This document shows, one piece after another, positions 542 to 13,963 of a stretch of 16,856 nt of DNA (positions are counted from its first letter, which is position 1; every line of letters begins with the position of its first letter). The DNA is taken from positions 1-16,856 of IMG/VR virus record IMGVR_UViG_2516143027_000005. The stretch is one strand, 5' to 3'. Source of the stretch: a virus (taxonomy: Duplodnaviria; Heunggongvirae; Uroviricota; Caudoviricetes). A program made the position numbers and the translations under genes. The notes below the pieces were generated by a model that saw nothing but the letters and a program-made list of their open reading frames with translations, was not told where the DNA came from and ran no database searches.

Positions 542-730
542 ATGCAGGACTATTTTTTGGAGTCTTTGAAGCTTCAGCGCATTGATTTTTTTCTTAAGCT
601 TGTAGCGGCTAGTGAGTGTAGTGATGAAGAGAAGGGGCTGGCCCTGCAGTGGGTTTCTGAACTGACAGATGAACTCATGGCAAAAATCAGAACTCACGAA
701 TACAACCGCTCAATGGATGTCATCAGCTGA
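542..730 (+). CDS. small hypothetical protein (62 aa), first gene of the LexA-controlled operon; possibly a Tum antirepressor N-terminal-domain analogue
   Basis: Strong RBS (aggagg at 530-535) before the ATG at 542; sits directly downstream of the LexA box. No recognisable motif. Confidence 0.55.
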   Translation: MQDYFLESLKLQRIDFFLKLVAASECSDEEKGLALQWVSELTDELMAKIRTHEYNRSMDVIS

Positions 731-740
731 GGTGACTTTT

Positions 741-974
741 ATGCGCATTGAAATAATGATCGATAAAGAGCAGAAGATTAGCCAGTCTACACTGGACGCC
801 CTTGAATCCGAGCTTTACCGCAATCTGCGCCCCCTGTATCCCAAAACGGTAATTCGTATCCGCAAAGGTAGCTCTAACGGTGTGGAACTGACCGGACTGC
901 AACTGGACGAAGAAAGAAAACAAGTGATGACAATTATGCAGAAGGTGTGGGAAGACGACAGCTGGCTGCATTAA
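741..974 (+). CDS. dinI: DinI-family protein (77 aa), prophage-encoded
   Basis: Starts MRIEI, contains DALESEL and ends KVWEDDSWLH, matching E. coli DinI (MRIEV...DALAGEL...ETWESADDWF) as I recall it. RBS gaggtg at 729-734. The ORF-track start at 669 overlaps the upstream gene and is less likely. Confidence 0.8.
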   Translation: MRIEIMIDKEQKISQSTLDALESELYRNLRPLYPKTVIRIRKGSSNGVELTGLQLDEERKQVMTIMQKVWEDDSWLH

Positions 975-1196: not shown

Positions 1197-1212
1197 CGCG
1201 CGCTGTGCGTGG

Positions 1213-1241
1213 TTGTAAAAGGAAATTGTTTTCGGTATAAC
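1213..1241 (+). promoter_or_regulatory. putative sigma70 promoter for the island 1 genes
   Basis: ttgtaa (1213-1218), 17-nt spacer, tataac (1236-1241), about 24 bp upstream of the 1265 ATG. Confidence 0.3.
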
Positions 1242-1264
1242 CACTTCCATTAGAAGGAGAACTT

Positions 1265-1510
1265 ATGAAAATTTTTGCAATAGTCATTACATGTATACTG
1301 GCATTGATTGCAGGATTATGGCTTTACATGGATCCTGGTTTTGATTCTATTGTTGCATTTTTGGCTGCAGTTAGCGCTTTAGCTGGATTACTTATCACTA
1401 CAAAAAATAAATATAATTCTATGAGTCAATCAGTTGGTGATAATTCAATTGGTGTCCAGGCTGGCGGTGATATTAAAATTGATTGTATAAATACAGGTGA
1501 TAAAAAATAA
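1265..1510 (+). CDS. small membrane protein (81 aa) with two predicted transmembrane helices
   Basis: RBS aggaga 7 nt before the ATG. Hydrophobic stretches IFAIVITCILALIAGLWLY and IVAFLAAVSALAGLLITT, then a polar C-terminal tail. AT-rich codons. Confidence 0.6.
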   Translation: MKIFAIVITCILALIAGLWLYMDPGFDSIVAFLAAVSALAGLLITTKNKYNSMSQSVGDNSIGVQAGGDIKIDCINTGDKK

Positions 1511-1519
1511 GGAGGATAT

Positions 1520-2377
1520 ATGTTTAGTGATAAACAAAAGCAACAAATAGGTAATAATTCGTATGCAATTCAAGCTGGAAATAATGTAAATGTTTCAGGG
1601 ATGTCGTTTTCCGAGGTTAGAGAACTATTCAACATTCTCTTCGAAAATCAGTTCCCAAAATTGAAAGATGTTGCTTATGCTGCAGCTCAAGAGAATGCAA
1701 AAGATTTTGAAGAGCGTGTCGTTTCGGATTTAACAAAAAACGTTGATAGATTGATTATTGATAAATTTTGCGATCCGGACGTTCAGGCTACATTGACTGA
1801 GGCATTAAAGTCATCAGCCAGAAAGGGAAAGAAAGCTAATATGGATGTGCTTTCTCAGTTGTTAGTTGAACGAGTCTCCAATAACAATGACGATTTTAGA
1901 GATATAGTCTTAACGGAGGCAGTTACTGTCGTTCCAAAGTTAACACAGCAACAAATATCACTTATAACGATAGTTTTTCTTCTCAAGAATGTTGAGATCA
2001 AAGATCCTGTTAATGGTGTTCGATTGGATTTGTTGGAGCACAATTTTAGAAATTTTGAACCAATGTATACTAATGGGTTTAATTTGTCTCAAGCCCAGAT
2101 ATATCACATTCAATATGCAGGGGCTTGTTCATGGAATACTTTTTTAGGGATAGATGTTGAAGACTATTTCATGGATAAATATCCGACTGATATAAAAGAT
2201 AAGAGTGCGTATATTTCAAATCTTAAGTTAGTTGCCCCTCATGTGTCTGCATTTTTAGAAAATTTTTCAAAGAGCAACTATCAAGGAATTGAACTAACAA
2301 GTGTAGGGCAAGCAATTGCTCTAGCCGTTATTTCAAGATACGTAGGAAGATTGGATTATAATATTTGGTTAAAATAG
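1520..2377 (+). CDS. hypothetical protein (285 aa), unknown function; candidate effector partnered with the upstream membrane protein
   Basis: RBS aggagg before the ATG at 1520, 9 bp after the upstream stop, so an operon arrangement. No Walker A or other motif recognised. Followed by a terminator. Confidence 0.6.
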   Translation: MFSDKQKQQIGNNSYAIQAGNNVNVSGMSFSEVRELFNILFENQFPKLKDVAYAAAQENAKDFEERVVSDLTKNVDRLIIDKFCDPDVQATLTEALKSSARKGKKANMDVLSQLLVERVSNNNDDFRDIVLTEAVTVVPKLTQQQISLITIVFLLKNVEIKDPVNGVRLDLLEHNFRNFEPMYTNGFNLSQAQIYHIQYAGACSWNTFLGIDVEDYFMDKYPTDIKDKSAYISNLKLVAPHVSAFLENFSKSNYQGIELTSVGQAIALAVISRYVGRLDYNIWLK

Positions 2378-2400
2378 GGCAGTATCTGCCCTATTTTATT
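2376..2400. terminator. bidirectional terminator hairpin between convergent genes (285-aa ORF and Q)
   Basis: Stem agggcag (2376-2382) / ctgccct (2386-2392), loop tat, with T-rich tracts on both strands. Confidence 0.55.
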
Positions 2401-10174: not shown

Positions 10175-10307
10175 CGGTGATCTGAATGCGTTGCTGGATG
10201 AAACGGAGGCCGCCTGGGCGGTCTGTGCAGACAAAGTGGACATGATTATTGCGTGTCAGGAGCGAAACAGTGAACAAACCACAATCCCTGCGCCACGCTC
10301 TCAATAA
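10017..10307 (+). CDS. lysC: o-spanin lipoprotein (Rz1 / LysC-like), largely embedded in lysB in a different frame
   Basis: GTG start; signal peptide ending in the lipobox LTLSGC; Pro-rich mature region; typical overlapped spanin arrangement. Confidence 0.65.
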   Translation: MRTRIYVAGLILLCLLTLSGCGNVRHSPEVQLTVSGCPRVTPCRLEQAAPRTNGDLNALLDETEAAWAVCADKVDMIIACQERNSEQTTIPAPRSQ

Positions 10308-10701
10308 AGCGGTGCCTTATGTCCGCAATAACCCGGACAAACTGCATCTGTTTGTGGATAACGGTTCGCTGGTTGCCACGGGGGCCAGCTCCATGTCATG
10401 GGAGTACCGTTACACCCTCAACGTGGTGATTGAGGATTTCAGCGGCGACCAGAATCTGCTGATGGCCCCGGTTTTGCTGTGGCTGAGGGATAACCAGCCC
10501 GATGCCATCAATAACCCGGCGTTACGGGAAAAGCTATTCACCTTTGAGGTGGATATTCTGCGCAACGATGTCTGTGATATCAGCCTGAACCTGCAACTGA
10601 CGGAGCGTGTGCTGGTCAGCACTGACGGCAGTGTGTCGAGCGTTGAAGGTATAGCGGAACCTGATGCACCTGAAGAAATGTGGACGGTGAAACGTGGCTG
10701 A
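10270..10701 (+). CDS. R: tail completion protein R (P2 gpR-like)
   Basis: GTG at 10270 with RBS aggag 7 nt upstream, preferred to the TTG at 10249 used by the ORF track. Position after the lysis genes matches P2 R. Confidence 0.7.
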   Translation: MNKPQSLRHALNKAVPYVRNNPDKLHLFVDNGSLVATGASSMSWEYRYTLNVVIEDFSGDQNLLMAPVLLWLRDNQPDAINNPALREKLFTFEVDILRNDVCDISLNLQLTERVLVSTDGSVSSVEGIAEPDAPEEMWTVKRG

Positions 10702-11152
10702 ACTGCAGAAGGTGGACGACTGGCTGAGTGCCTTGCTGGCGAATCTGGAACCAGCCACGAGAAGCCGCATGATGCGCCAGCTGGCGCAGGAACTGCGCCG
10801 GACACAGCAGCAGAATATCAGGATGCAGCGCAACCCTGACGGCAGCAGCTATGAACCGCGACGGGTAACAGCACGCAGTAAAAAGGGGCGCATCAAACGT
10901 CAGATGTTTACAAAGCTGCGCACCACAAAATACCTGAAAACTGCCGCCAGCGCGGATACTGCCAGCGTACAGTTTGAAGGTAAGGTACAGCGCATTGCCC
11001 GCGTTCACCATTACGGCCTACGTGATCGCGTCAGCCGCAAAGGACCTGAGATCCGTTACGCAGAGAGAAAATTGCTTGGATTAAATGGATGTGAAAAATT
11101 AATTCGAAAAATATTCATTATGAATTTATTTTCTGGGGATTGGCTGGCATAA
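10694..11152 (+). CDS. S: tail completion protein S (P2 gpS-like) with an island-derived C-terminus
   Basis: GTG start overlapping the R stop. The conserved-looking core (RIARVHHYGLRDRV) is GC-rich; the last ~20 codons are AT-rich like island 2. Confidence 0.7.
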   Translation: MAELQKVDDWLSALLANLEPATRSRMMRQLAQELRRTQQQNIRMQRNPDGSSYEPRRVTARSKKGRIKRQMFTKLRTTKYLKTAASADTASVQFEGKVQRIARVHHYGLRDRVSRKGPEIRYAERKLLGLNGCEKLIRKIFIMNLFSGDWLA

Positions 11153-11173
11153 AAGCCAGCCTTTATTTTTTTT
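11142..11173 (+). terminator. rho-independent terminator after S
   Basis: Stem ggctggc (11142-11148) / gccagcc (11155-11161), loop ataaaa containing the S stop codon, then a T-run 11162-11173. Confidence 0.6.
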
Positions 11174-12029
11174 ATGTGATGGCCCCTATCTTTTGATTGT
11201 AATAACTATAATCAGCATGTTCTTCTGTATAAAAAATCTCAAATGCAGACAAGATGTTTGCGTAAAAACTATCCTTGGATATAGAGGTTTTTTTATTGAT
11301 GGATGCCAAAAAGTTTGTTATAAATCTTAATGATGCAGAGAAAAGAAAGTGCCCTTTCACCCAATGATTTATAGATGTATTTTCTGGGAATTGAATGTTG
11401 TTTTTTTCTGCTAAACCATTAGTAGTAAACGATTCAGGTAGTCTATTGATATATTCATCTATTTTTTTCTTGCATATATTGTATGAATTTCTTGATTGCA
11501 TAAAACGATCACAGGAATCACCAATTACGGAGCATCCTAATTTATTTAAATGATTGTGAATATCTAGTATTATTAAGTTCTCAATGTTGCTATAGAAGTT
11601 AGAAAGCCAATTTCCTACATCTATTTCCTGCATTTTTTTTGTGCAAAAACGGCCTGTGTTTTTGAGTATGTGTGATATGATTTTTTCATCAATGATTGTG
11701 TTTTCTATTGAATATCCCTTTGTGTAAATAATATTTGTATGCTTTACTATGTTGTCAGAAAAATGGTTTAGATCCGAATCTCTGGCAACTATGGCGTTTA
11801 TTTCTCCTGAGGTTATTTTTTCGATATATGGTTGTAAGGCTTCACATCCACCAACATCTTGAACTTCTACATTAAAACGACCATTTTTTTTAAAAATTAT
11901 TTCCCAAAAAGCAATGTCATCTTCACCTTCAACATAGACCATAATATCAGCATCATAAAATAAACTGATCACATTTTCCGCTTCATTAGACCAAGAAAAG
12001 TTTTCTGCATTAGAATCATTGATTAGCAT
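11172..12029 (-). CDS. ariB: TOPRIM-like (DUF4435-type) putative nuclease, AriB-like
   Basis: 285 aa. N-terminal VYVEGEDD (E34/E36) and ARDSD (D84-x-D86) give the Glu plus DxD spacing typical of TOPRIM/OLD-family nucleases. Start overlaps the upstream ATPase gene by 14 bp. Confidence 0.6.
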   Translation of the reverse strand: MLINDSNAENFSWSNEAENVISLFYDADIMVYVEGEDDIAFWEIIFKKNGRFNVEVQDVGGCEALQPYIEKITSGEINAIVARDSDLNHFSDNIVKHTNIIYTKGYSIENTIIDEKIISHILKNTGRFCTKKMQEIDVGNWLSNFYSNIENLIILDIHNHLNKLGCSVIGDSCDRFMQSRNSYNICKKKIDEYINRLPESFTTNGLAEKNNIQFPENTSINHWVKGHFLFSASLRFITNFLASINKKTSISKDSFYANILSAFEIFYTEEHADYSYYNQKIGAIT

Positions 12030-13272
12030 TGACTAATCTCTCCATATTGAAAATGGCGTTTTTATATTTAGATGCAACTTCAGGAGAATGGGTTGCAGCA
12101 ATAATTTGTGCATTAGGATTTAATTTTTTTATGGCAGGGATAATATTTCTTTGCCATTGAATATGTAAGGAAAGCTCAGGCTCATCAGTTAGGAAAATAT
12201 ATTGTTGCCCTCTTTGTAAGAGGGTCTCAATGAATAAAATTAGCAGTTGTTTTTCACCAGAAGATAAACTTTCTAAAACTATTGGCCCATAGGTGTTATT
12301 TATGACTAACAATCCCGATTGAAAATGAAATTCTTTATCGGTGATAAAATTTCTTAGTATGCTTAAGAATTGTTCTATTGGAGAAAATATTTTTGATGTT
12401 TTCTCTTTTGAAGTTAATGACATTTTGATTATTTTTTGTGTTTTTCTCAATGCTTCGATCGAACGAATATCAAAGCCTCTTTCACTTTTATTCTTTAATT
12501 CCGAAATGGTATTATTAATTGTTTCAACATGAAAGCTGATTTTTTTACGAATGTTTTGATCAATAGCATTTAACTGTGTGTATGCATTAAGGAGGTTTTG
12601 TTTTTCTTCCTCTTTGTTAAAGTTAATGTTGTAAGCAGGATTCTCCATATCTTCCTTGCTATAAAGTATTGATGCCAGAACCTCTTTTTGTAGTTCTAAT
12701 GCGATATCTCTGGCTTTCTGGGATAGTTCAAGTTGATATTTTGTAAGTTCCTGTATTAATTCTGATAACTTATAGTCAACAGGGTTGATAAAACGAGAGC
12801 CATATTTATCTTTAACTTCAAAATCATCACTATTTCTTAATCTGTAAACAGATAAAGAAGAAAGCGAGACTAGTTTTGCTAGTTCTGTTCTTAGTTCTTC
12901 TGTTTCATCATGCACTCTACGTCTATAACTAAGAGATATTCTTCTATCATCAGTGTTAAATAAACGAATTGTGTGTTTTTTAGATGAAAGCTGATATTCT
13001 ATTTTGGAAAATGGAGATGTATCGCTTTCAAGTTTTTTGACTTTGATTGTTTTTGTCTTTTTTTTATCTTTAAGTTTTATTTCGGCACTATTGAAATCAG
13101 CATTGTTAATACTGTCCAAATCAAGGGATAATATTGAGTGCAGAAGGTTCATAAAGGTTGTTTTACCCGTGCCATTTCGGCCTATAATAATGTTTACATC
13201 ATCATTAAATGAGCAGGAACAGTTTAATCGCTGCCAAAAGCCATTAATTGTGACGCTTTGAATTTTATACAT
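12016..13272 (-). CDS. ariA: ABC-type (AAA_15/AAA_21-like) ATPase, AriA-like
   Basis: 418 aa. Walker A GRNGTGKTT at residues 31-39, ABC signature-like LSSGEKQ, Walker B/D-loop IFLTDEPELSLH and H-loop ATHSPE near the C-terminus. RBS aagga before the ATG. Confidence 0.65.
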   Translation of the reverse strand: MYKIQSVTINGFWQRLNCSCSFNDDVNIIIGRNGTGKTTFMNLLHSILSLDLDSINNADFNSAEIKLKDKKKTKTIKVKKLESDTSPFSKIEYQLSSKKHTIRLFNTDDRRISLSYRRRVHDETEELRTELAKLVSLSSLSVYRLRNSDDFEVKDKYGSRFINPVDYKLSELIQELTKYQLELSQKARDIALELQKEVLASILYSKEDMENPAYNINFNKEEEKQNLLNAYTQLNAIDQNIRKKISFHVETINNTISELKNKSERGFDIRSIEALRKTQKIIKMSLTSKEKTSKIFSPIEQFLSILRNFITDKEFHFQSGLLVINNTYGPIVLESLSSGEKQLLILFIETLLQRGQQYIFLTDEPELSLHIQWQRNIIPAIKKLNPNAQIIAATHSPEVASKYKNAIFNMERLVNANQ

Positions 13273-13308
13273 CTATGTATCCTTTATTATTAGTTGAACT
13301 ACTTAAAT

Positions 13309-13338
13309 TTATAATCATTTGTGTCATCCTCAGTACAA
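13309..13338 (-). promoter_or_regulatory. putative sigma70 promoter for the island 2 operon (minus strand)
   Basis: On the minus strand: ttgtac, 18-nt spacer, ttataa, about 37 nt upstream of the ATG. Overlaps the TGT-N12-ACA dyad. Confidence 0.25.
13320..13337. promoter_or_regulatory. candidate Ogr-type late activator site (TGT-N12-ACA) upstream of V
   Basis: tgtgtcatcctcagtaca, about 50 bp upstream of the V start, where the P2 V-operon late promoter would be expected. Confidence 0.35.
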
Positions 13339-13384
13339 TTATGCCGTTTGGAAGATATTATTTCAAATGTTTAATATATACGGT

Positions 13385-13963
13385 ATGAACGCACAATTAA
13401 CCGAAATCATGCGCCTTATCACCAATCTGATCCGCACAGGTGTAGTTACCGAAGTGGACCGGGAGAACTGGCTTTGCCGGGTGAAAACGGGCGACCTTGA
13501 AACCAACTGGATCAGCTGGCTGACGCTGCGCGCGGGTAATGCCCGCACATGGTGGCGACCATCGGAAGGTGAGCAGGTGGTGGTGCTGAGTCTGGGAGGC
13601 AATCTGGAAACTGCCTTTGCGTTGCCCGCTGTCTATTCGAATCAGTTCGCGCCACCTTCGACGTCGGCGGACGCCTGCGTGACAGAACATCCTGACGGTG
13701 GCTGGTTTGAATACGAACCCGCCACCGGGCGCTGGTATGTCAGGGGCATCAAATCCATGGTCATTGAGGCTGCCGACAACATCACCCTGAAAACCAGTGA
13801 GTTTGTGCTGGAGGCTGACCGCACGCGTATTAACAGCGAAGTAGTGATCAATGGTGGCGTTACCCAGGGCGGCGGTGCAATGAGTTCTAACGGAATTGTG
13901 GTTGATGCACATCAGCATACTGGCGTCCTGAAAGGCGGCGATACAACCGGAGGCCCGGTATGA
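13385..13963 (+). CDS. V: baseplate spike / assembly protein V (P2 gpV-like)
   Basis: 192 aa. ATG at 13385 chosen over the ORF-track start at 13319, whose extra N-terminal codons lie in AT-rich island DNA. Confidence 0.75.
   Translation: MNAQLTEIMRLITNLIRTGVVTEVDRENWLCRVKTGDLETNWISWLTLRAGNARTWWRPSEGEQVVVLSLGGNLETAFALPAVYSNQFAPPSTSADACVTEHPDGGWFEYEPATGRWYVRGIKSMVIEAADNITLKTSEFVLEADRTRINSEVVINGGVTQGGGAMSSNGIVVDAHQHTGVLKGGDTTGGPV

What the first reader, a model, noticed from the sequence alone, without database searches (positions are those of the whole stretch)
11060..11173. Island 2 junction lies inside the 3-prime end of tail gene S, giving S an island-encoded C-terminus whose stop codon sits in a terminator loop
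Seen in sequence: the S reading frame continues from GC-rich backbone into AT-rich DNA for about its last 20 codons (NGCEKLIRKIFIMNLFSGDWLA) and stops inside the loop of a hairpin followed by a T-run. Inference: the insertion replaced the native end of S, producing a chimeric but intact tail completion protein, and the moron brought its own terminator that now also ends the R-S transcript.
Basis: partly seen in the sequence, partly recalled or inferred. Interest (0 to 1): 0.45.

Follow-up and report, generated by a model that had tools for sequence, protein, structure and literature searches.

The report
Swapped tail-gene end beside PARIS cassette
In this P2-like prophage the last 27 codons of the tail gene S belong to the same AT-rich swappable block as a PARIS anti-phage system, but they are a diverged copy of the normal S end rather than random read-through, as at almost every filled copy of this hotspot.

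Summary
Observation confirmed. DNA identity to island-free relatives stops inside gene S at codon 124/125 (window 11065|11066). S continues for 27 AT-rich codons and stops (TAA 11150-11152) in the loop of a hairpin followed by a T-run.

The island is a PARIS defence cassette (ariB 11172-12029, ariA 12016-13272, minus strand) at the P2 orf30 position between S and V.

The block is a replacement allele running from S codon 125 to the V start codon (13385). It carries its own S C-terminal helix, a terminator, the cargo and its own copy of the late promoter P_V (TGT-N12-ACA, 13320-13337).

In 165 related S-V loci I found 38 cassette types:
- 37 have their left boundary inside S, each with its own AT-rich tail that keeps the canonical length and motif.
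- 36 end within 4 nt of the V ATG.
- All carry the activator dyad at -63 to -66.

The same cassette sits on different flanking haplotypes, so exchange is by homologous recombination in the conserved flanks.

PARIS and P2 hotspots are known. That the cassette includes an essential gene's end and an essential promoter was not mentioned in the papers I could search. Interest is moderate.

The parts
10249..10701 (+). gpR tail completion/terminator gene; backbone, overlaps the S start
   Evidence: Pfam P2_Phage_GpR 159 bits; annotated the same way in relatives
10694..11065 (+). gpS core, codons 1-124; GC-rich backbone, 93-98% identical in DNA to island-free relatives
   Evidence: Pfam Phage_tail_S aligns residues 3-132
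11066..11152 (+). Cassette-encoded S tail, codons 125-152 plus stop (RKLLGLNGCEKLIRKIFIMNLFSGDWLA*). AT-rich. Predicted C-terminal helix 134-147. The last residues WLA are read from the 5' arm of the hairpin
   Evidence: Breakpoint 11065|11066; GC3 0.0-0.4; helix with pLDDT about 80; similarity tests; PHROG alignment to residue 142
11142..11173 (+). Intrinsic-terminator-like hairpin (stems 11142-11148 and 11155-11161, loop 11149-11154 holding the S stop codon) plus T-run 11162-11173. It sits between the convergent S and ariB stops
   Evidence: the stem is conserved in L004 and L005, and equivalent hairpins follow ariB in L091, L093, L095 and L178
11172..12029 (-). ariB (DUF4435/TOPRIM-like PARIS effector), 285 aa. 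Its stop codon (11172-11174) overlaps the end of the T-run
   Evidence: PADLOC AriB 2e-21 and Pfam DUF4435 94 bits; graded homologues
12016..13272 (-). ariA (ABC/AAA_15 ATPase of PARIS), 418 aa; overlaps ariB by 14 nt
   Evidence: PADLOC AriA 2e-38, Pfam AAA_15 and AAA_21
13338..13366 (-). Sigma-70-like promoter candidate for ariAB (TTGAAA-17-CATAAT, 10 of 12), back-to-back with P_V
   Evidence: This is a consensus match only; the count of such matches in the region is not above chance
13320..13337 (+). TGT-N12-ACA dyad (Ogr/delta-type activator site of late promoter P_V), starting 65 nt before the V ATG, inside cassette DNA
   Evidence: The same motif lies at -63 to -66 in every island-free locus and in every cassette type
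13385..13963 (+). gpV baseplate spike gene. Backbone identity resumes at its ATG (right junction 13384|13385)
   Evidence: Pfam Phage_base_V and Apex; right breakpoints -4 to 0 in 36 of 38 cassette types; translation

Best explanation
The window is a P2-like (Peduoviridae) prophage. Its S-V intergenic hotspot, the position of P2 orf30, is occupied by a 2.3-kb AT-rich replacement cassette (11066-11384... precisely 11066-13384).

The cassette is a complete allele of everything between the conserved core of S and the start codon of V. It contains:
- its own version of the S C-terminal helix;
- a hairpin and T-run terminator;
- the PARIS genes ariA and ariB on the opposite strand, with their own promoter candidate;
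- its own version of the Ogr-dependent late promoter P_V.

Such cassettes move between phage backbones by homologous recombination in the conserved flanks (the S core on the left, the V coding sequence on the right). The weakly constrained S tail and promoter therefore stay linked to the cargo and diverge with it.

The resulting S is a mosaic of two S genes, not an S fused to random DNA, and most likely still works in tail completion.

The stop codon in the hairpin loop is a local peculiarity of this cassette. Compared with its sister cassette (L005), about 30 nt between the S tail and the ariB-proximal hairpin are missing. S therefore reads four extra codons (DWLA) into the 5' arm of the hairpin.

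On the S strand the hairpin is followed by the T-run, so it should end the late O-operon (R-S) transcript and keep late transcription from running antisense into ariBA.

Shown: the boundaries, homology and generality. Inferred: the recombination mechanism, terminator activity and S function.
For: 1. Identity of the parts: (AriA, AriB, gpR, gpS, gpV).

2. Boundaries. The left junction is at S nt 372/373 and the right junction at the V ATG. In 165 S-V loci from two backbone lineages, all 108 island-free loci have a 68-nt gap. The 57 island-bearing loci fall into 38 cassette types. Of these, 37 have the left boundary inside S (codons 100-147, modes at 125 and 129), and 36 have the right boundary at -4 to 0 from the V ATG.

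3. Tails go with cargo. Tails lie within 4 residues of canonical in 106 of 108 island-free loci against 7 of 57 island-bearing loci (Fisher 5e-32). The loci are not phylogenetically independent, but there are 38 distinct types.

4. Tails are homologous and constrained:
- Every tail is 18-25 residues after LLG, with a mode of 19, although I estimate stop codons at roughly 8% per codon in DNA this AT-rich.
- The pattern N at +2, D/N at +11, L at +13 and W-L at +16/17 recurs.
- The window tail against the canonical tail was matched by 89 of 100,000 shuffles; against a PSSM of 75 other tails, by 588 of 100,000.
- PHROG phrog_26 aligns S residues 1-142.
- AlphaFold2 predicts a C-terminal helix at 134-147 with pLDDT about 80.
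- Column entropy jumps from 0.2-0.7 bits (residues 1-129) to 2.3 bits (residues 130-148).

5. Tail, promoter and cargo diverge together. The window and L005 PARIS proteins (AriA 85%, AriB 71%) have related tails and alignable P_V regions. The more distant PARIS cassettes in L002 and L178 have unrelated-looking tails.

6. Cassettes reassort against their flanks:
- The window and L004 cassettes are 99.5% identical, yet their V 5' parts differ at 23 of 540 sites.
- The window's V is closest to loci that carry other cargo.
- The 1536-nt cassette, with an identical tail, occurs in both backbone lineages.

7. P_V is replaced but functional features are kept. TGT-N12-ACA lies at -63 to -66 in every cassette, within otherwise unrelated DNA.

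8. Terminator.
Against: - The window-type tail (with L005) is the most divergent of all tails. It lacks the usual D at +11 and W at +16, and its absolute PSSM score is negative (-6.2 bits). Pfam's local alignment stops at residue 132. Homology of this particular tail rests on p of about 1e-3 to 6e-3 plus the length of its sister tail.
- No donor phage with an AT-rich S gene throughout was found, so the origin of the AT-rich tails is unexplained.
- No experiment shows that this S supports tail assembly. One of the three E. coli genomes with this cassette (EC596, L004) holds a rearranged, defective prophage.
- Terminator activity and the promoters are consensus-level predictions only.
- The AlphaFold model is poor overall (mean pLDDT 64, pTM 0.30).
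- The loci were sampled from IMG/VR by similarity, not at random.
Confidence: 0.78

Rival explanations
1. First reader's model. A moron (PARIS with its terminator) inserted once into the 3' end of S in this prophage lineage and deleted the native end. The frame then happened to run on through foreign AT-rich DNA to a stop in the terminator loop, so the tail has no ancestry in S.
For: - There is a sharp compositional and identity break inside S.
- The window tail scores poorly against a tail PSSM, and Pfam does not align it.
- The last four residues really are read from hairpin DNA.
Against: - The positional similarity to canonical tails exceeds shuffles, and the PHROG profile aligns to residue 142.
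- The sister cassette L005 has a related tail of exactly the canonical length.
- 37 of 38 cassette types have their own tail of 18-25 residues with the family motif, which chance read-through in stop-rich AT DNA would not give.
- P_V is replaced too.
- The PARIS module found elsewhere carries no such sequence.
Confidence: 0.08
2. The chimeric S is defective. The prophage is cryptic and kept only as a carrier of PARIS, so the altered C-terminus has no functional meaning.
For: - EC596 carries the same cassette in a prophage whose gpA pseudogene abuts lysC.
- The window-type tail lacks two of the best-conserved tail positions and is 4 residues longer.
- The cassette is rare: 3 of 5426 complete E. 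coli genomes.
Against: - In the window all late genes from Q to I are present as full-length ORFs in P2 order.
- The S ORF is intact and identical in tail sequence in the window, L004 and a Klebsiella protein, P0001.
- Other AT-rich tails occur in records deposited as phage genomes, such as vB_EcoM-813R9.
- The tail length constraint across 38 cassette types argues for purifying selection.
Confidence: 0.1
3. The S tails vary because of selection on S itself, for example to escape defence systems that sense the tail completion protein, or to fit the linked cargo. The association with cargo would then be functional rather than mere linkage.
For: - The tail is hypervariable only where cargo is present, while island-free tails are conserved across genera.
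- Each cargo type has its own tail.
Against: - The divergence begins as a sharp DNA boundary and coincides with a shift to AT-rich composition, including synonymous sites of conserved residues such as R-K-L-L-G. That is the signature of imported or linked DNA, not of point substitutions under selection.
- Boundaries range from codon 100 to the stop codon, and one cassette type keeps the native tail.
- The only PARIS trigger I know of from the literature is the T7 anti-restriction protein Ocr, not a tail protein (PMC9122126).
Confidence: 0.06

Closest known systems
P2 orf30 locus and other P2-like hotspots of accessory or defence genes (old/tin between gpA and gpQ; Z/fun; tail-gene hotspots). 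Sources: Rousset et al. 2022 PMC9122126; Egorov et al. 2024 bioRxiv 10.1101/2024.10.15.618418; Moura de Sousa et al. 2026 PMC13586616
   Same: - The cargo sits between S and V exactly where P2 carries the nonessential orf30 on the opposite strand, after a putative terminator.
- The cargo is AT-rich, differs between near-identical phages and is often defensive.
- Rapid swapping without pseudogenes matches the turnover those papers describe.
   Different: - In P2 itself the S tail is GC-normal and orf30 lies after the S stop and terminator.
- Here, and in 37 of 38 cassette types, the swapped block starts inside S and ends at the V ATG, so it includes an essential gene's C-terminus and the P_V promoter.
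- The papers I could search do not mention this. They define hotspots by whole flanking core genes.
PARIS (AriA/AriB) anti-phage system, first found in the P4 satellite hotspot (Rousset et al. 2022, PMC9122126)
   Same: A two-gene operon of an AAA_15/AAA_21 ATPase (418 aa) and a DUF4435 protein (285 aa) with overlapping genes, matching the PADLOC AriA and AriB models.
   Different: - It is located in the P2-like S-V hotspot rather than in P4.
- Relatives of this clade also sit in the gpA-gpQ hotspot (Serratia, Proteus) and next to a MobA relaxase (Salmonella, E. coli).
- Activity was not tested.
Morons of tailed phages: an autonomous promoter-gene-terminator unit inserted between two phage genes (concept of Juhala/Hendrix, from my own knowledge)
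   Same: AT-rich relative to the backbone, with its own promoter candidate and terminator, in an orientation independent of the late operon, at a boundary between two late genes.
   Different: A classical moron is an addition between genes. Here the unit replaces functional backbone elements (the S tail and P_V) with diverged homologous versions, so it behaves as an allele of the whole inter-core segment.
Hitch-hiking of flanking gene ends at hypervariable loci, for example gnd next to the O-antigen cluster in E. coli (from my own knowledge)
   Same: Ancient, AT-rich, highly diverse cassettes are exchanged by recombination in conserved flanks, and divergence spills into the adjacent ends of the flanking genes.
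   Different: Here the affected flank is 20-50 codons of an essential virion gene with a sharp boundary, on a phage genome. The right flank stops exactly at a start codon.

Membership tests
Phage_tail_S / P2 gpS tail completion (virion morphogenesis) protein, PF05069 | Significant match to the family profile | tested here: met
   131.3 bits against a cut-off of 24.3, residues 3-132; PHROG phrog_26 at 2e-46, residues 1-142
Phage_tail_S / P2 gpS tail completion (virion morphogenesis) protein, PF05069 | Gene position between gpR and gpV in a P2-type late gene order | tested here: met
   the same order is annotated in P2 and its relatives
Phage_tail_S / P2 gpS tail completion (virion morphogenesis) protein, PF05069 | Family-type C-terminal segment after the invariant LLG (about 19 residues, N at +2, D at +11, W-L at +16/17) | tested here: inconclusive
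   N at +2 and the hydrophobic register are kept, and similarity is above shuffles (89 and 588 of 100,000). However, D at +11 and W at +16 are absent, the PSSM score is negative and the tail is 23 residues long. A helix is predicted.
Phage_tail_S / P2 gpS tail completion (virion morphogenesis) protein, PF05069 | Supports tail completion and production of infectious virions | not testable with these tools
   Needs induction or complementation experiments
PARIS (AriA/AriB) | ABC-type ATPase AriA (AAA_15/AAA_21) | tested here: met
   PADLOC AriA 2.2e-38; Pfam AAA_15 79 bits and AAA_21 71 bits
PARIS (AriA/AriB) | DUF4435/TOPRIM-like AriB encoded directly downstream in one operon | tested here: met
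   PADLOC AriB 2e-21; Pfam DUF4435 94 bits; 14-nt overlap with ariA
PARIS (AriA/AriB) | Anti-phage activity triggered by an anti-restriction protein such as Ocr | not testable with these tools
P2-like hotspot cassette (orf30 position) | Variable cargo between the same two core genes in otherwise near-identical phages | tested here: met
   38 cassette types and 108 empty sites among 165 loci with S residues 1-125 at least 90% identical to one of the two query sequences
P2-like hotspot cassette (orf30 position) | Compositionally foreign (AT-rich) relative to the backbone | tested here: met
   Island GC 0.31 against 0.56-0.58 in S and V
P2-like hotspot cassette (orf30 position) | Exchange by recombination in the flanks (cassette and flank histories disagree) | tested here: met
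   the same 1536-nt cassette occurs in two backbone lineages
Intrinsic (Rho-independent) terminator | G+C-rich stem-loop immediately followed by a U-run on the transcribed strand | tested here: met
   7-bp stem with 6 G-C pairs, 6-nt loop, then TTTATTTTTTTT
Intrinsic (Rho-independent) terminator | Conserved at the same position in relatives | tested here: met
   The stem is identical in L004 and L005. Different hairpins lie at the same place after ariB in L091, L093, L095 and L178. Only 2 of about 20 cassette types scanned have a canonical terminator right after S, so it is not a general feature of the hotspot.
Intrinsic (Rho-independent) terminator | Terminates transcription in vivo or in vitro | not testable with these tools
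   Needs 3'-end mapping or a reporter assay
Ogr/delta-activated P2 late promoter (P_V) | TGT-N12-ACA dyad centred near -55 from the transcription start | tested here: met
   The dyad is at 13320-13337, with its centre 55.5 nt before the V ATG. The spacing is the same in all island-free and cassette loci. The start site is not mapped here; the P2 record places it at the first base of V.

The most novel reading that the evidence does not exclude
The S-V hotspot of P2-like phages is not an insertion site. It is a set of old alleles, each a self-contained block holding an S C-terminal helix, the cargo on the opposite strand, and a P_V promoter. Essential phage parts are thus permanently linked to, and co-diverge with, defence cargo.

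In that reading the architecture is functional. Convergent late transcription could shut the cargo off during the phage's own lytic cycle, gated by a terminator that the terminating ribosome can occlude because the S stop lies in its loop. Ogr binding to a dyad that overlaps the ariA promoter could do the same. The constant 55.5-nt spacing between dyad and ATG would also mean that V is translated from a leaderless mRNA.
Probability: 0.15. Interest if true: 0.6.

Novelty: new variant of a known kind. Interest (0 to 1): 0.4.

Why it matters
Hotspot surveys define cargo as whatever lies between two whole core genes. Here the true exchange unit cuts into one of those core genes and takes over the promoter of the next operon.

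This matters in four ways:
- **Delimiting and cloning defence cassettes.** The native promoter of ariAB overlaps P_V, and the terminator overlaps S.
- **Annotating gpS.** Clustering at 90% identity splits one orthologue into dozens of 'families' by its last 20 residues.
- **Engineering P2-like phages or tailocins.** The S C-terminal helix tolerates very large sequence change.
- **Understanding recombination.** It shows how recombination keeps essential genes uniform right up to the edge of a hypervariable block.

It does not reveal a new kind of system.

Tried and rejected
- **Tail-only protein search for donor S genes.** The origin of the AT-rich tails therefore stays open.
- **AriB in GTDB representative genomes.** 71 pattern matches, none confirmed. 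I used protein clusters and contig look-ups instead.
- **Solved structures by sequence.** Neither the single S sequence nor the profile found anything beyond chance eL38 matches, so the C-terminal helix could not be placed in a neck structure.
- **AlphaFold2 model of S.** The model was poor overall (mean pLDDT 64, pTM 0.30). I used only the local helix prediction and did not run a fold search on it.
- **Rfam.** No family reached threshold anywhere in the window.
- **Relics of the canonical S tail or intergenic region inside the islands.** Only left-end continuity was found. The idea that cassettes are simple insertions into an island-free ancestor gets no support.
- **Hairpin arm as a relic of S.** The 5' arm TGGCTGGC equals the canonical W-L-A codons and lies in frame in both the window and L005. 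One evolutionary observation of an 8-10-mer is too weak, so it is kept only as a side note.
- **Terminator after S as a general feature of the hotspot.** Rejected: only the window type and L057 have a canonical one.
- **Literature.** I found no description of the S tail being part of the cassette in PMC9122126, PMC13586616 or bioRxiv 2024.10.15.618418. Christie & Calendar 2016 is not held, and the Nilsson papers were not looked up.
Full report
**What is in the window**

The ORF order and family matches show a P2-like (Peduoviridae) late region. It holds Q and P on the minus strand, then O, N, M, L, X, holin, lysozyme, lysA and lysB. After these come gpR (10249-10701), gpS (10694-11152), an AT-rich block, gpV (13385-13963), W, J and I.

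The AT-rich block carries two minus-strand genes:
- A 285-aa DUF4435 protein (11172-12029) that matches the PADLOC AriB model.
- A 418-aa AAA_15/AAA_21 ATPase (12016-13272) that matches AriA.

So 'island 2' is a PARIS anti-phage system. It sits where phage P2 itself carries the nonessential, opposite-strand orf30, after a putative terminator.

**Check of the observation**

- Composition: GC drops from about 0.56 to about 0.30 at 11060-11100. Within S, the 30-nt blocks from nt 361 have GC 0.40, 0.20 and 0.30, and the ten codons 131-140 all end in A or T.
- Junction: alignment with island-free relatives shows near-identity through ...CGTTACGCAGAG and unrelated DNA afterwards. The relatives are Klebsiella phage 4LV2017, Escherichia phage 500465-1 and E. 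coli MB20, all with a 68-nt S-V gap. The junction is at S nt 372/373, window 11065|11066.
- Reading frame: S then runs 27 more sense codons (R KLLG LNGCEKLIRKIFIMNLFSGDWLA) to TAA at 11150-11152.
- Hairpin: the stop lies in the loop (11149-11154) of GGCTGGC/GCCAGCC (11142-11148 and 11155-11161), which is followed by TTTATTTTTTTT (11162-11173). The last two T's of that run and the following A are the complement of the ariB stop codon.
- Stability: the local fold is -15.9 kcal/mol, z = -2.2.

A consensus terminator scan is not above chance for the region on its own. The argument for function is the position between two convergent stop codons, plus conservation (see 'The hairpin' below).

Island-free S proteins end in VNDDVEAMTRDMILQWLAG.

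**The tail is a diverged S tail, not random read-through**

I collected 80 IMG/VR loci whose S residues 1-125 are at least 95% identical to the window. I added 80 more from a second backbone lineage of the Klebsiella/Enterobacter type, plus loci from phage and E. coli records.

Of 165 loci with both S and V, 108 are empty (68-nt gap). The other 57 carry cargo and fall into 38 cassette types.

- Empty sites have the canonical tail: 106 of 108 are within 4 residues of it.
- Filled sites almost never do: 7 of 57 (Fisher 5e-32). The loci are not phylogenetically independent, but 38 distinct types are.
- Each cassette type has its own AT-rich tail (GC 0.19-0.5).
- All tails are 18-25 residues after the invariant LLG, with a mode of 19 as in the canonical protein.
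- Most keep N at +2, D/N at +11, L at +13 and W-L at +16/17.

I estimate that DNA this AT-rich has a stop codon about every 12 codons. The uniform tail length therefore indicates selection.

Across 45 S proteins, column entropy jumps from 0.2-0.7 bits (residues 1-129) to 2.3 bits (residues 130-148). AlphaFold2 gives a poor model overall (mean pLDDT 64) but a confident C-terminal helix at 134-147.

The window's tail is among the most divergent:
- Anchored on LLG, its BLOSUM62 score against the canonical tail was reached by 89 of 100,000 shuffles.
- Against a PSSM of 75 other tails, 588 of 100,000 shuffles reached its score, though the absolute score is negative.
- Pfam's alignment ends at residue 132, while PHROG phrog_26 aligns through residue 142.
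- Its sister cassette L005 has a clearly related tail of exactly 19 residues (FNENNDCIKNILIMSLFNT against LNGCEKLIRKIFIMNLFSG).

On the right, identity to island-free phages resumes at the V start codon, at -4 to 0 in 36 of 38 cassette types. The whole S-V intergenic region is therefore replaced.

In island-free phages that region consists of the TGT-N12-ACA dyad, 4 nt after the S stop, followed by the promoter. I know this dyad as the Ogr/delta activator site of P2 late promoters.

Every cassette carries its own TGT-N12-ACA starting 63-66 nt before the V ATG, in otherwise unrelated AT-rich DNA. In the window it is at 13320-13337.

The cassette is thus an allele of everything between the S core and the V ATG. 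It holds the S helix, sometimes a terminator, the cargo and P_V. The cargo lies on the opposite strand in 34 of 38 types.

Left boundaries range from codon 100 to the stop codon, with modes at codons 125 (7 types) and 129 (4 types). Only one type, L006, keeps the native tail, and it still brings its own P_V.

**How it gets there**

Cassette and flanks have different histories.

- The window and E. coli EC596 (L004) share the cassette at 99.5% identity (11 mismatches in 2318 nt). Their V 5' parts nevertheless differ at 23 of 540 sites, and their S cores at 7 of 372.
- The window's V is closest to loci with other cargo, L012 and L056.
- One cassette (1536 nt, tail YSNNSYLIVSDLLMKWLTHR) occurs in both backbone lineages.

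This is what homologous recombination in the conserved flanks produces. Repeated crossovers would erode linked donor sequence up to the point where similarity becomes too low. On the left that point is the weakly constrained S helix, and on the right it is the non-coding promoter.

Tail, promoter and cargo diverge together:
- The window and L005 (AriA 85%, AriB 71%) have related tails and alignable P_V regions.
- L002 (AriA 63%) and L178 (AriB 57%) have different tails.

In L005 the AT-rich part reaches further into the conserved core, with low GC3 from about nt 331. This suggests the donor S gene was itself AT-rich. I could not find such a donor.

**The PARIS module and the S tail are separable**

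Relatives of this AriB (54-66% identical) were found in three other settings:
- Between portal and gpA genes in Serratia, and next to a portal gene in Proteus. This is the classical old/tin hotspot.
- Next to a MobA relaxase in Salmonella and E. coli.
- In chromosomal islands.

None of these has any S-like sequence. Each does have a hairpin directly after the ariB stop. The hairpin therefore travels with PARIS, while the S tail belongs to the hotspot flank.

**The hairpin and the stop codon in its loop**

L005 carries the same stem (ATGGCTGGC...GCCAGCCAT), but 36 nt downstream of its S stop. There the T-rich run lies on the ariB side.

Relative to L005, the window lacks about 30 nt (10 codons, in frame) between the end of the S tail and the hairpin. 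S therefore reads on through GAT TGG CTG GCA (DWLA) into the 5' arm and stops in the loop. In the window the T-run lies on the S side.

It is not a general property of the hotspot. Only 2 of about 20 cassette types scanned have a canonical terminator right after S. Island-free phages have none, because the 68-nt gap is filled by P_V.

From general knowledge, a ribosome stopping in the loop would cover the 3' arm. Termination could then depend on how closely translation follows transcription. That is speculation.

**Comparison with what is known**

- PARIS and the P2/P4 hotspots are described in Rousset et al. 2022 (PMC9122126).
[quoted passage not shown] 2026 (PMC13586616).
- Egorov et al. 2024 list the old/tin hotspot, the Z/fun hotspot and a third one.

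None of the texts I could search mentions that the S C-terminus and P_V belong to the exchanged block. Older work on P2 was not examined: Christie & Calendar 2016 is not held, and the Nilsson papers were not looked up. I therefore cannot exclude an earlier remark.

In P2 itself the S tail is GC-normal and orf30 starts after the S stop and terminator.

**Verdict**

It needs three corrections:
1. The new end is a homologous S tail.
2. The exchanged unit extends to the V start codon and includes P_V.
3. This is the normal state of this hotspot, not an accident of this prophage.

It is a useful refinement of a known kind of element, and interest is moderate.

Noticed in passing
window 1200-2400 (ORFs 1265-1510 and 1520-2377, + strand): A second AT-rich island (GC about 0.33) lies between a gpA-like/DinI region and the portal gene Q, which is the classical old/tin hotspot. 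Its 81-aa and 285-aa proteins match only PHROGs of unknown function (phrog_27656, phrog_19542) and nothing in PADLOC or Pfam. It is a candidate uncharacterised defence or accessory pair.
   Followed up: partly
window 13320-13387; loci L001-L176 upstream of V: The TGT-N12-ACA dyad starts 63-66 nt before the V ATG in all 165 loci, so its centre is about 55.5 nt before the A of the ATG. The P2 record places the V-operon transcription start at the first base of the V CDS. V may therefore be translated from a leaderless mRNA, which would explain why cassette boundaries stop exactly at the ATG.
   Followed up: partly
window 13338-13366 (- strand) against 13320-13337: The best sigma-70-like promoter candidate for ariA (TTGAAA-17-CATAAT) would start transcription inside the Ogr dyad of P_V. 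Activator binding during late development could therefore block ariAB transcription. This rests on a consensus match only.
   Followed up: no
38 cassette types in L002-L176: The cargo is encoded on the strand opposite to S and V in 34 of 38 cassette types, on the same strand in 2, and 2 have no ATG-started ORF of at least 60 aa. Convergent orientation with the late operon is the rule at this hotspot.
   Followed up: yes
window 11141-11149; L005 about 1463-1474: The 5' arm of the hairpin (TGGCTGGC) is identical to the last canonical S codons W-L-A (TGG CTG GCG). In L005 the same bases lie in frame with S, 11 codons after its stop (...SLFNT*CIVVKNSKAKWLANCQP*). This may be a relic of an older S end, or chance.
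   Followed up: partly
L004 (E. coli EC596, NZ_CP156718.1) 1-910: The same PARIS cassette sits in a rearranged prophage there. A truncated replication-endonuclease (gpA) pseudogene directly abuts lysC, so the Q-to-lysB part of the late region is missing.
   Followed up: no
L091/L092 (Serratia marcescens), L180 (Proteus), L093-L096 (Salmonella, E. coli), L178 (Enterobacter): The same PARIS clade (AriB 38-66% identical) occupies different hotspots: portal-gpA in Serratia, next to a portal gene in Proteus, beside a MobA/MobL relaxase in Salmonella and E. coli, and S-V in Enterobacter. Defence cargo therefore moves between hotspots and element types.
   Followed up: partly
protein clusters P0001-P0120: Because only the last 20 or so residues differ, gpS orthologues that are at least 95% identical over residues 1-125 are split into many 90%-identity clusters. 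Several cluster representatives are read-through or fusion artefacts of 160-240 aa, for example P0010, P0024, P0028 and P0047.
   Followed up: no
window 669-974: There is a DinI-like ORF (phrog_189, RecA filament binding protein DinI, 2e-30) next to the gpA C-terminal fragment at the left end of the window.
   Followed up: no
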